1,197 nucleotides of DNA from a phage. Below, piece by piece: positions 1 through 1,197 of the stretch (position 1 is its first letter; every line of letters starts with the position of its first letter). The stretch is taken from sequence record OR846209.1; one strand, 5' to 3'. A program made the position numbers and the translations under genes. Below the pieces are notes generated by a model. It made no database searches and had not been told where the DNA came from. It worked only from the letters and a program-made list of their open reading frames with translations.

Positions 1-58
1 CGTCAATCCAGTCGATAACCTCAAAAGTCGAAGGATGGTAGTACACATATTTAGTCAT
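1..58 (-). CDS. 5' end of a downstream minus-strand ORF (3'-truncated by window edge); function unknown, by position a candidate tail-fibre assembly/chaperone or other accessory gene
   Basis: ATG at 58..56 lies 4 nt after the tail-fibre stop. Hand translation of the minus strand gives MTKYVYYHPSTFEVIDWID... open to the window edge. Only 19 codons are visible, and I do not recognise the N-terminus as a classical Tfa (lambda Tfa / Mu U / P2 G) start. The region is AT-rich. Confidence 0.35.
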   Translation of the reverse strand, partial: MTKYVYYHPSTFEVIDWID

Positions 59-62
59 ATTT

Positions 63-68
63 TCACCA
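63..68 (-). promoter_or_regulatory. Putative ribosome-binding site (TGGTGA on minus strand) for the downstream ORF, overlapping the last codon and stop of the tail-fibre gene
   Basis: Minus-strand sequence ...TTCATGGTGAAAATATGACT...: GGTG core at 67..64, about 5 nt spacer, ATG at 58..56. Weak Shine-Dalgarno match; arrangement fits translational coupling. Confidence 0.3.
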
Positions 69-1197
69 TGAAATTTTTACAAAACCATCAGAACCGCGCC
101 CACCAGAATATCCAGATATCGCGGAGCGCGTATTTTGGCTCAATGACGCACCACCACCACCACCAGCTCCATAGCCATCGGCATTTCCTCCGTTTGCAAA
201 TGCAGCCGCACTGCCGCCTGTGCCAAAGGCCGAACCCACACCAACCCCTCCTGGAGATGATTCGGTAGATGTAAATTCTGCTATTTTGCCGCTGCTACCT
301 AATCCGCCTTTAGCAGTGATATTAATAAAAGATGAGTCGCCTCCATCAAGCCCTAGTTCACCTGCATCCCCTTTAATTAGCGTATGGCCTTGTCCATTAG
401 GACCAATAGATGTTCTATCTTCATATGAACGTACAAAACCGCCGCCTCCACCTGAACCTCCAGCCCCAACAGAAACCGTATAAGTTTTTTTAGATGTCAC
501 ACCTATAATGGCAATTTTTAATTCTCCATGATTACCTCCCCTACCAGCTGAATAGGCATTAGTCTTATCGGGATCAGGAGTACATCCACCACCACCTCCT
601 CCACCACCTCCTCCCAGCATTTCAACAAAAACCTGCGTTACCCCATCAGGCACAGTAAAAGTCCCATTAGCTGTAAAAAACTGGTATCGAGGCCCGTTTG
701 AAGCTGCCGTATTTGCCAGATTCAGTGCCGCATTCGCCTTATCCATCGCCGCTTTCACCGCGCTCGGCGTCGCCGCCTCCGTCGTACTGGTGCTGTCGGT
801 GGCGTTATTAAGCTTCACGATCCCTTTTTGCGTTAGCGTACCGTCCGGGGTGCCGGTGATCTGCCCCCAGGCGTGAGTATGGCTGGCCGGGGCCGCCGCA
901 CTCGCCTTATCCATCGCCGCCTTTACCGCACTGGGCGTTGCCGCTTCTGTGGTACTGGTGCTGTCCGTCGCGCTGTTAAGTTTCACGATCCCTTTTTGCG
1001 TCAGCGTACCGTCCGGGGCGCCGGTGATCTGCCCCCAAGCGTGTGTATGCCTAGCCGGAGCCGCCGCACTCGCCTTATCCATCGCCGCCTTGACCGCACT
1101 GGGCGTTGCCGCTTCGGTGGTGCTGGTGCTATCGGTGGCGTTATTAAGCTTCACAATCCCTTTTTGCGCCAGCGTGCCGTCCGGGACACCGGTAACC
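63..1197 (-). CDS. Phage/prophage tail fibre protein, 3' portion (5'-truncated by window edge): repeated shaft motifs plus glycine-rich C-terminal distal domain
   Basis: Minus-strand ORF in the six-frame track (63..1154, 363 aa) ending at TGA (63..65). The 'M' at 1154 is a GTG that corresponds to Val in the internal repeat motif GIVKLN. Hand translation of 1155..1196 in the same frame gives ...VTGVPDGTLAQKGI with no stop, so the gene continues upstream past position 1197. The repeat motif GIVKLN(N/S)ATDSTSTTEAATPSAVKAAMDKA...HTHAWGQITG matches my memory of enterobacterial phage tail-fibre repeats (the Pfam Phage_fiber_2 type); not verified by search. Confidence 0.88.
   Translation of the reverse strand, partial: VTGVPDGTLAQKGIVKLNNATDSTSTTEAATPSAVKAAMDKASAAAPARHTHAWGQITGAPDGTLTQKGIVKLNSATDSTSTTEAATPSAVKAAMDKASAAAPASHTHAWGQITGTPDGTLTQKGIVKLNNATDSTSTTEAATPSAVKAAMDKANAALNLANTAASNGPRYQFFTANGTFTVPDGVTQVFVEMLGGGGGGGGGGCTPDPDKTNAYSAGRGGNHGELKIAIIGVTSKKTYTVSVGAGGSGGGGGFVRSYEDRTSIGPNGQGHTLIKGDAGELGLDGGDSSFINITAKGGLGSSGKIAEFTSTESSPGGVGVGSAFGTGGSAAAFANGGNADGYGAGGGGGASLSQNTRSAISGYSGGRGSDGFVKISW
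66..725 (-). other. Glycine-rich C-terminal distal domain of the tail fibre (putative receptor-binding tip)
   Basis: After the last repeat the protein becomes unique: ...RYQFFTANGTFTVPDGVTQVFVEML-GGGGGGGGGG-CTPDPDKT...VGAGGSGGGGGF...GLDGGDSS...KGGLGSSGK...PGGVGVGSAFGTGGSAA...GYGAGGGGGASL...GYSGGRGSDGFVKISW. Multiple poly-Gly blocks are separated by short non-Gly segments. Position at the C-terminus of a tail fibre is where receptor-binding domains normally sit. Function is inferred, not demonstrated. Confidence 0.6.
584..613 (-). repeat. (GGN)10 codon tract encoding a 10-residue poly-glycine run
   Basis: Plus strand reads tccaccaccacctcctccaccacctcctcc, i.e. ten consecutive Gly codons (GGA/GGT) on the coding strand, directly between the ...TQVFVEML segment and CTPDPDKT... 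Confidence 0.85.
726..1197 (-). repeat. In-frame tandem repeat array, unit 168 bp / 56 codons, about 2.8 copies in window (array open at right edge)
   Basis: The string cgccttatcc recurs at 735, 903 and 1071 (spacing exactly 168 bp). Hand alignment of unit 735..902 against 903..1070 shows about 20 mismatches in 168 (about 88% identity). Encoded peptide units are nearly identical (differences N/S, A/T, R/S). Similarity decays below about 726. Confidence 0.92.

What the first reader, a model, noticed from the sequence alone, without database searches (positions are those of the whole stretch)
873..1049. One H-T-H (HxH) motif per repeat unit, possible metal-coordinating 'His box'
Each shaft unit contains ...PA(R/S)HTHAWGQITG... 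(HTH at 1041..1049 and 873..881 on the minus strand). HxH motifs in the T4 long tail-fibre tip are known to coordinate metal ions along the trimer axis. A regularly spaced HxH every 56 residues in a presumably trimeric shaft could likewise form periodic metal-binding sites that stabilise the fibre. This is speculative but testable.
Basis: inference. Interest (0 to 1): 0.4.

Follow-up and report, generated by a model that had tools for sequence, protein, structure and literature searches.

The report
Likely iron-binding histidine pairs in tail fibre
The two His-Thr-His motifs are real, strongly conserved, and match a short sequence module that holds an iron ion on the central axis of solved three-chain phage and bacteriocin fibres, so this is a new example of a known feature rather than a new one.

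Summary
HTH codons lie at 1041..1049 and 873..881 on the minus strand, 168 nt (56 aa) apart. They sit in the partial gene for a Salmonella P2-type prophage tail fibre.

Each HTH lies in a 15-residue linker (S/R-HTHAWGQITGxPDG) between Pfam Phage_fiber_2 repeats, not inside the repeat. The third repeat in the window has no HTH after it.

In 150 diverse relatives, this linker is one of several interchangeable linker types. Within its type, the two His and the Trp are the least variable positions. HxH is about 10-fold over-represented in these proteins.

The same HTHxWxQ(I/V)TGxP motif also occurs without Phage_fiber_2 repeats. A profile of 40 such modules finds only phage or pyocin fibre proteins among its top PDB hits: Bxb1 gp4 (E 4.9e-9) and the R2 pyocin fibre (E 0.011). 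In the R2 fibre the aligned His are His562/His564, the published octahedral Fe ligands. A bridging relative links the motif to monocin FtbO His67/69 and His122/124, which are published ferric-ion ligands.

It is a new member of a known kind and of modest interest.

The parts
63..1196 (-). Partial CDS, the C-terminal 377 aa plus stop (TGA at 65..63), of a P2 gpH-type prophage tail fibre. The 5' end runs off the window.
   Evidence: Translation. Pfam Phage_fiber_2 at 7.4e-52 and Gly_rich_2 at 1.7e-5. The 589-aa relative P0001 is 94% identical and named tail fiber protein [Salmonella enterica]. The same gene lies at 97.6% DNA identity in OR850896, flanked by Baseplate_J, Tail_P2_I and a downstream 201-aa ORF.
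1053..1175 (-). Phage_fiber_2 repeat 1 (residues 8-48).
   Evidence: Pfam reports 3 matched stretches. Coordinates are placed by register with the best stretch, 120-160.
1008..1052 (-). Linker module 1 (residues 49-63, RHTHAWGQITGAPDG), holding HTH at 1041..1049 (His50, His52).
   Evidence: The module class is defined.
885..1007 (-). Phage_fiber_2 repeat 2 (residues 64-104).
   Evidence: placed by register with the best stretch.
840..884 (-). Linker module 2 (residues 105-119, SHTHAWGQITGTPDG), holding HTH at 873..881 (His106, His108).
717..839 (-). Phage_fiber_2 repeat 3 (residues 120-160). It is followed by a junction without HxH (AALNLANTAASNGPR).
   Evidence: Best Pfam stretch 120-160. Junction variants are listed.
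66..671 (-). C-terminal glycine-rich domain (residues 176-377), probably the receptor-binding domain.
   Evidence: Pfam PF21722. AF2 model with pLDDT 83.5. Foldseek hits to Bxb1 tail-tip chains, the Pam3 fibre and the ALK glycine-rich domain. The middle of the domain is hypervariable among relatives.
1..58 (-). Start (ATG at 58..56) of the downstream gene, MTKYVYYHPSTFEVIDWID.... It sits where the tail-fibre assembly gene would be.
   Evidence: Sequence. The full 201-aa ORF in L001 matches DUF4376 at 6.7e-12. The chaperone role is inferred from gene order only.

Best explanation
The window encodes part of the shaft and the tip of a homotrimeric P2-type prophage tail fibre. The shaft is built from 56-residue units. 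Each unit is a 41-residue Phage_fiber_2 repeat plus a 15-residue linker, S/R-H-T-H-A-W-G-Q-I-T-G-x-P-D-G.

In the assembled trimer, the three copies of each linker most likely meet on the three-fold axis. Their six imidazoles (3 x HxH) would then coordinate one buried metal ion octahedrally, most likely iron. This is what is seen in the R1/R2 pyocin fibre shaft and in the monocin FtbO stalk. The invariant Trp two residues later probably packs under the site.

Each site would act as a registration point and clamp that holds the three chains in register and stiffens the shaft. The full-length fibre would carry three such sites, 56 residues apart. Two of them are in this window.

Shown here: the motif, its position outside the Pfam repeat, its conservation, and its sequence similarity to solved iron sites. 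Inferred: trimer geometry, metal identity, and the role in folding or stability.
For: - Motif and spacing are confirmed.
- Selection acts on the repeat protein sequence. Units 1 and 2 differ at 14 synonymous but only 4 non-synonymous codons, and the HTH is retained.
- Within the Salmonella/E. coli family, every 24-aa linker keeps H-x-H, with x = T, I, S or R.
- In 150 representatives at 50% clustering there are 636 Phage_fiber_2 repeats. HxH follows 115 of them, and 93 of these are at one fixed offset. In the 24-aa linker class, His8, His10 and Trp12 have the lowest column entropies (0.33, 0.21, 0.33). The only exceptions are an unrelated GGGG linker and one degenerate copy.
- HxH occurs 279 times in those proteins, against 27 +/- 5 in shuffles. 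No other residue tested shows comparable X-x-X enrichment.
- The same HTHxWxQ(I/V)TGxP motif recurs every 30-35 residues, without Phage_fiber_2, in P0204 and P0232. It also occurs alongside PF12789 repeats in P0241. It is therefore a self-contained module.
- A profile of 40 modules (A4) was searched against 177,635 PDB sequences. The four best hits are all phage or pyocin fibre proteins: 9D93 Bxb1 gp4 (E 4.9e-9), 6CL6 R2 pyocin fibre (E 0.011), 6CT8, and 6CL5 R1 fibre.
- The aligned His in 6CL6 are chain residues 243/245. With the 323-691 construct, these are His562/His564, which are the octahedral Fe ligands (PMC6116203).
- P0241 matches monocin FtbO (9J1L) at E 3.3e-5, with its HTH motifs aligned on His67/69 and His122/124. 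These coordinate ferric ions in the FtbO trimer (PMC11830787).
- The window HTH aligns with those same P0241 motifs (BLASTP, E 1e-14 to 4e-16).
- Monomeric AF2 fails completely on the shaft (pLDDT 33) but succeeds on the C-terminal domain (pLDDT 83.5). This fits an obligately interdigitated multimeric shaft.
Against: - No trimer model and no metal data were obtained.
- The link to solved iron sites rests on a short module. The narrow profile built only from Phage_fiber_2-flanked linkers (A2) reaches 9D93 at only E 3 and does not reach the pyocin fibres.
- hhalign of A4 against the FtbO fragment gives 4% probability. The 6CL6 hit is borderline (E 0.011).
- Metal sites are not needed for Phage_fiber_2 shafts in general. 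82% of these repeats are followed by linkers without His, for example the 12-aa NGKYTAQDATTA linker.
- A QTH variant of the first linker exists in intact, widespread Salmonella proteins, for example P0102 on 248 contigs.
- The window lineage has lost the HxH at the last junction.
Confidence: 0.7

Rival explanations
1. The HxH-x-W module is a purely structural packing or hydrogen-bonding element of the interdigitated shaft. The buried His/Trp ladder binds no metal.
For: - Trp12 is as invariant as the two His.
- A Gln replaces the first His at one site in intact proteins.
- Linkers without His also join Phage_fiber_2 repeats.
- No metal evidence was obtained here.
Against: - Where this module has been solved and described, the HxH binds iron: R1/R2 pyocin fibre and FtbO.
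- Six buried imidazoles facing one axis without a cation would be energetically odd (general knowledge).
Confidence: 0.15
2. The histidines are solvent-exposed and act as pH sensors or as ligand or receptor contacts along the shaft.
For: His is titratable near physiological pH. The middle residue x varies (T, I, S, R, N, K), as exposed positions do.
Against: - The alternating invariant pattern H-x-H-x-W, with variable x, fits one buried face of an extended strand.
- The homologous solved sites are buried on the axis.
- Receptor specificity maps more plausibly to the hypervariable C-terminal domain.
Confidence: 0.07
3. The regular HxH is only a by-product of recent DNA duplication of one unit and carries no selected function.
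For: The units are 88% identical at the DNA level, so the two copies are not independent.
Against: - There are 14 synonymous against 4 non-synonymous differences between units.
- Both His are invariant in linkers from proteins only 40-60% identical, from E. coli, E. fergusonii, Moraxella and metagenomes.
- HxH is enriched about 10-fold over shuffles.
Confidence: 0.03

Closest known systems
Iron site of the R1/R2 pyocin fibre Shaft domain (PDB 6CL5, 6CL6; His561/563, His562/564)
   Same: - Trimeric P2-related fibre.
- An HxH in the shaft, not the tip.
- Flanks are alike: pyocin KPATFPPSAHNHDVGQLT against window DKASAAAPASHTHAWGQIT.
- The module profile aligns exactly on the Fe ligands.
   Different: - The pyocin has a single site in a helix-plus-turn shaft. 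Here there is a site every 56 residues, alternating with Phage_fiber_2 repeats.
- The pyocin has Val where the window has the invariant Trp.
- The sequence match is borderline (E 0.011).
Monocin side-fibre protein FtbO (PDB 9J1L; His67/69 and His122/124 bind ferric ions)
   Same: - Two HTH pairs 55 residues apart in a trimeric stalk, each holding an iron ion.
- Linked to the window through P0241.
   Different: - The link is transitive only. The direct profile comparison is weak.
- The intervening sequence is of the PF12789 type, not Phage_fiber_2.
- It is part of a Gram-positive F-type bacteriocin.
Mycobacteriophage Bxb1 gp4 'tail collar fibers' (PDB 9D93)
   Same: - Best PDB match of the module profile (E 4.9e-9).
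- Carries two copies, PSAHDHVAADVTD and PSSHTHSIANVTGL.
- There are 9 chains in the entry, consistent with three trimers.
   Different: Whether a metal is modelled there is unknown to me, because the paper is not held. It has no Phage_fiber_2 repeats.
   Same: HxH triplets coordinate Fe on the axis of a trimeric fibre (cited in PMC6116203, and PMC8174754).
   Different: - The gp37 sites are closely spaced, in a six-stranded C-terminal receptor-binding needle.
- No sequence match to gp37 appeared in any PDB search.
- Here the sites are in the shaft, 56 residues apart.
P2 gpH / Mu S tail fibres (Phage_fiber_2 repeats; PDB 5YVQ, 8JU3, 9KI1)
   Same: - The Phage_fiber_2 repeat itself. Mu S residues 105-158 match at E 3e-6.
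- In the full-length relative, the N-terminal PF12571 domain and the J-I-H-G-like gene order.
   Different: The Mu S repeat is not followed by HxH. The P2-type 12-aa linker NGKYTAQDATTA has no His.

Membership tests
Pfam PF03406 Phage_fiber_2 repeat | Match to the family HMM above the gathering score. | tested here: met
   173.1 bits against a cut-off of 22, with 3 stretches.
Pfam PF03406 Phage_fiber_2 repeat | The HxH is part of the repeat as the family defines it. | tested here: not met
   The best stretch, 120-160, spans positions 1-41 of the 42-position model. By register, the HTH starts 2 residues after the model ends. Only 115 of 636 repeats in diverse proteins are followed by HxH.
Axial His6-metal site of trimeric phage/tailocin fibres (R-pyocin shaft, FtbO type) | An HxH motif with both His conserved among homologues. 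| tested here: met
   Both His are invariant in the homologous 24-aa linkers, apart from one degenerate copy. A QTH variant occurs at the 19-aa first linker in one Salmonella lineage.
Axial His6-metal site of trimeric phage/tailocin fibres (R-pyocin shaft, FtbO type) | Sequence similarity of the module to a site solved with bound iron. | tested here: met
   Profile A4 hits 6CL6 at E 0.011 with His562/564 aligned, and 9D93 at E 4.9e-9. P0241 bridges to FtbO at E 3.3e-5. This evidence is borderline or transitive: the narrow profile A2 and hhalign are weak.
Axial His6-metal site of trimeric phage/tailocin fibres (R-pyocin shaft, FtbO type) | Homotrimeric assembly, with the six imidazoles converging on the three-fold axis. 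| not testable with these tools
The monomer model had pLDDT 33. Trimer status is inferred from the family (pyocin, Mu S and FtbO are trimers).
Axial His6-metal site of trimeric phage/tailocin fibres (R-pyocin shaft, FtbO type) | A bound transition metal. | not testable with these tools
   This needs metal analysis or a structure.
T4 gp37-type receptor-binding needle | A C-terminal needle with several closely spaced HxH and sequence similarity to gp37. | tested here: not met
   No gp37 hit appeared in the PDB searches. The sites are 56 residues apart in the shaft. The C-terminal domain is a glycine-rich fold instead.
Pfam PF12789 PTR (phage tail repeat like) | Match to the family HMM. | tested here: not met
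   PF12789 is not listed for the window protein at E up to 1. It is present in the bridging protein P0241.
P2 gpH-type tail fibre gene | N-terminal PF12571 domain and a position after the Baseplate_J and Tail_P2_I genes. | tested here: met
   Seen in the 97.6% identical record OR850896 (L001) and in P0001. The N-terminus itself lies outside the window.

The most novel reading that the evidence does not exclude
The HxH-x-W-x-Q-I-T-G-x-P element may be an independent, mobile 'metal clip' cassette. Recombination would insert it between otherwise unrelated fibre repeats: Phage_fiber_2, PF12789-type repeats, and 30-35-aa RWP-type repeats. The number of axial iron sites would then be tunable, from 0 to at least 17-18 per chain (P0204, P0232). 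Long fibres built this way would be sizeable iron sinks, and their assembly would depend on iron supply.
Probability: 0.3. Interest if true: 0.45.

Novelty: new member of a known kind. Interest (0 to 1): 0.3.

Why it matters
Axial HxH-iron sites are an established feature of phage and tailocin fibres, so this does not change the picture.

It adds two modest points. First, in the very common Phage_fiber_2 shafts of enterobacterial prophages, the metal-site motif sits in an exchangeable linker rather than in the annotated repeat. Second, the same linker module recurs in quite different fibre architectures.

This is useful for annotating fibres and for engineering chimeric fibres or tailocins, where junctions could be chosen at module borders and the HxH registers kept. 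It also helps estimate metal content per virion: three predicted sites per fibre here, so 18 per particle if there are six fibres.

Tried and rejected
- **Monomer AF2 of residues 2-158.** With a 15-row alignment it gave pLDDT 33 and only three short helices, so no fold search was run on it.
- **Narrow linker profile.** A search of the 5.8-billion-protein set with profile A2 returned only short fragments and added nothing.
- **Bxb1 paper.** The paper that would say whether gp4 in 9D93 binds metal is not held. One search read another mycobacteriophage paper in the hope of finding it; that paper had nothing on it.
- **hhalign of the module profile against the FtbO fragment.** It aligned the HTH, but at 4% probability. 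The FtbO link therefore rests on P0241.
- **The HEH before the first repeat in full-length relatives (LDEHEHSTNHPDA).** I considered it as a fourth site and rejected it. The third position is Q, K, R and others in other families.
- **NCBIfam** gave nothing useful.

Full report
**What is in the window**

The minus strand of 63..1196 is one open frame that runs off the 5' end. It encodes 377 residues ending in ...GFVKISW.

Pfam finds three Phage_fiber_2 repeats (PF03406, E 7.4e-52) and a C-terminal glycine-rich domain (PF21722). PHROGs families are tail or tail-fibre proteins.

The closest protein is a 589-aa 'tail fiber protein [Salmonella enterica]' at 94% identity. The DNA is 97.6% identical to a 6-kb Salmonella phage contig, OR850896. 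In that contig the complete 589-aa gene follows Baseplate_J and Tail_P2_I genes. It is followed by a 201-aa ORF whose start, MTKYVYYHP..., is also at 58..1 of the window. This is therefore a P2 gpH-type prophage tail fibre.

**The observation**

CAYACNCAY matches only at 873..881 and 1041..1049, both on the minus strand. The peptides are PARHTHAWGQITG and PASHTHAWGQITG.

The tandem repeat has a period of 168 nt, 2.8 copies and 88% matches, so the two HTH are 56 residues apart.

The best Pfam stretch covers residues 120-160. By register, the HTH begins two residues after the end of each Phage_fiber_2 match, inside a 15-residue linker. The third unit is not followed by HxH.

Units 1 and 2 differ at 14 synonymous and 4 non-synonymous codons. 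The copies have therefore diverged under purifying selection.

**Conservation in close relatives**

Among 120 close relatives, every 24-aa linker between repeats keeps H-x-H, with x = T, I, S or R.

Two exceptions matter.
- The first (19-aa) linker reads QTH instead of HTH in 18 cluster representatives. These include intact and widespread proteins.
- The junction to the C-terminal domain is APANHSHYQFF in most relatives. In the window's lineage it is AALNLANTAASNGPRYQFF.

**Conservation in diverse relatives**

An exhaustive HMMER search of 1.84 billion representatives with the shaft gave 1261 hits. The best 150 were analysed. They contain 636 Phage_fiber_2 repeats.

The linkers between repeats fall into discrete classes:
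- 12 aa, NGKYTAQDATTA (108 cases, no His).
- 24 aa, xxKAPxSHTHxWxQITGVPxxxLT (61 cases, the window type).
- 21 aa, KANxSHSHxxxDLP.
- Others of 7, 19, 36, 46 and 52 aa.

In the 24-aa class the two His and the Trp are the least variable columns. The only sequences lacking HxH are an unrelated GGGG-containing linker and one degenerate copy.

HxH occurs 279 times in these proteins, against 27 +/- 5 in residue shuffles. 558 of 1533 His residues lie in HxH pairs. No other residue tested shows such an X-x-X excess.

**The module is independent of the repeat**

The same HTHxWxQ(I/V)TGxP motif recurs every 30-35 residues, with no Phage_fiber_2 between copies, in two long metagenomic proteins (P0204, P0232). 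It also occurs next to PF12789 'PTR' repeats in P0241.

Named members come from E. coli, E. fergusonii and Moraxella. Others are metagenomic.

**Link to solved structures**

The window protein alone finds only Mu fibre S (5YVQ, 8JU3, 9KI1), through one Phage_fiber_2 repeat that has no HxH.

A profile of 40 HxH modules from diverse contexts (A4) was searched against all PDB sequences. It returns as its four best hits:
- Bxb1 gp4 'tail collar fibers' (9D93, E 4.9e-9, two copies of the motif).
- The R2 pyocin fibre (6CL6, E 0.011).
- 6CT8.
- The R1 pyocin fibre (6CL5).

In 6CL6 the aligned His are chain residues 243 and 245. The construct is residues 323-691 in a 372-residue chain. This maps them to His562 and His564. 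Buth et al. showed these are the six-histidine octahedral site of a buried iron ion in the Shaft domain (PMC6116203).

Separately, P0241 matches monocin FtbO (9J1L) at E 3.3e-5. Its HTH motifs align on FtbO His67/His69 and His122/His124. The structure paper reports that these coordinate ferric ions in the FtbO trimer (PMC11830787).

The window's HTH aligns with those same P0241 motifs by BLASTP, including HTHTWAQVTDAPNATTTARGLTRL against HTHAWGQITGTPDGTLTQKGIVKL.

**Weak points**

- These links rest on a short module.
- The narrower profile A2 reaches 9D93 only at E 3.
- hhalign to the FtbO fragment gives only 4% probability.

**Structure prediction**

A monomer model of the shaft was useless (pLDDT 33). 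The C-terminal domain modelled well as a monomer (pLDDT 83.5). The contrast fits a shaft that folds only as an interdigitated multimer, but it proves nothing about the histidines.

**Interpretation**

The most likely reading (about 0.7) is that each HxH triplet forms a buried axial metal site in the trimeric shaft, probably binding iron. It would act as a registration point and clamp, as proposed for the pyocin fibre.

The full-length fibre would have three such sites 56 residues apart. FtbO has two sites 55 residues apart.

The sites appear helpful but individually dispensable. Many Phage_fiber_2 shafts use linkers without His. One site carries Gln in a natural lineage. This lineage has swapped out the last site.

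**Rivals**

- A metal-free packing motif (0.15).
- Exposed pH-sensing or ligand-binding histidines (0.07).
- Hitch-hiking on repeat duplication (0.03).

**Novelty**

HxH-iron sites in fibres, spikes and tailocins are well documented.

None of the papers I read through the available searches describes the Phage_fiber_2-linker form of the site, or its modular distribution. This remains a new member of a known kind.

Noticed in passing
window 66..686 (-): The C-terminal glycine-rich domain (YQFFT...ISW) models confidently as a single chain (pLDDT 83.5). By Foldseek it resembles Bxb1 tail-tip chains 9D93_Qa/Qb (E 5e-6), the cyanophage Pam3 fibre 7YPX/7YFW, and more weakly the ALK/LTK glycine-rich domains. 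Its ends are conserved and its middle is hypervariable among Salmonella relatives, as expected for a receptor-binding domain.
   Followed up: partly
window 687..731 (-), residues 156-170: The junction between the last repeat and the C-terminal domain is AALNLANTAASNGPR in this lineage. Most relatives have AAAPANHSH there, directly before YQFFT, so one predicted HxH site has been replaced here.
   Followed up: partly
L001 1463..3232 (full-length relative), residues about 166-178: LDEHEHSTNHPDA lies before the first repeat and looks like an HxH. In other families it is HEQ, HEK or HER. The conserved features are the first His and the later HP, so this is a different motif whose role is unknown.
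   Followed up: partly
P0102, P0044 and 16 other relatives (first linker): A natural H-to-Q variant (RNQTHTWNQITG) of the first HxH occurs in intact fibre proteins. One of these was seen on 248 contigs. Some carriers also have a frameshifted C-terminus (P0105, P0109).
   Followed up: partly
P0204 (1641 aa) and P0232 (1525 aa), metagenomic: These are very long proteins with 17-18 HxH per chain, in tandem 30-35-aa repeats HTHxWxQVTGAPVYTTRWPT.... They would be fibres with an unusually high density of predicted metal sites. Pfam gives only weak YmaF or DUF matches.
   Followed up: no
PDB 5IV5 chain O (T4 gp12): The N-terminal repeats of T4 short tail fibre gp12 (VNGVPDASSTTKGI, TESDQGVVQLA, and others) weakly resemble the start of the Phage_fiber_2 repeat (E 2.3, not significant).
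   Followed up: no
window 1..58 (-) and L001 3237..3842: The downstream 201-aa ORF sits in the tail-fibre-assembly position. It matches only DUF4376 in Pfam, not the usual Caudo_TAP family.
   Followed up: no
window 585..614: A run of 10 Gly codons (GGA/GGT/GGC mix; a CCA/CCT repeat on the plus strand) encodes GGGGGGGGGG near the start of the C-terminal domain. Seven of these ten Gly positions are invariant in the alignment of eight relatives; the rest are Gly in most rows.
   Followed up: no
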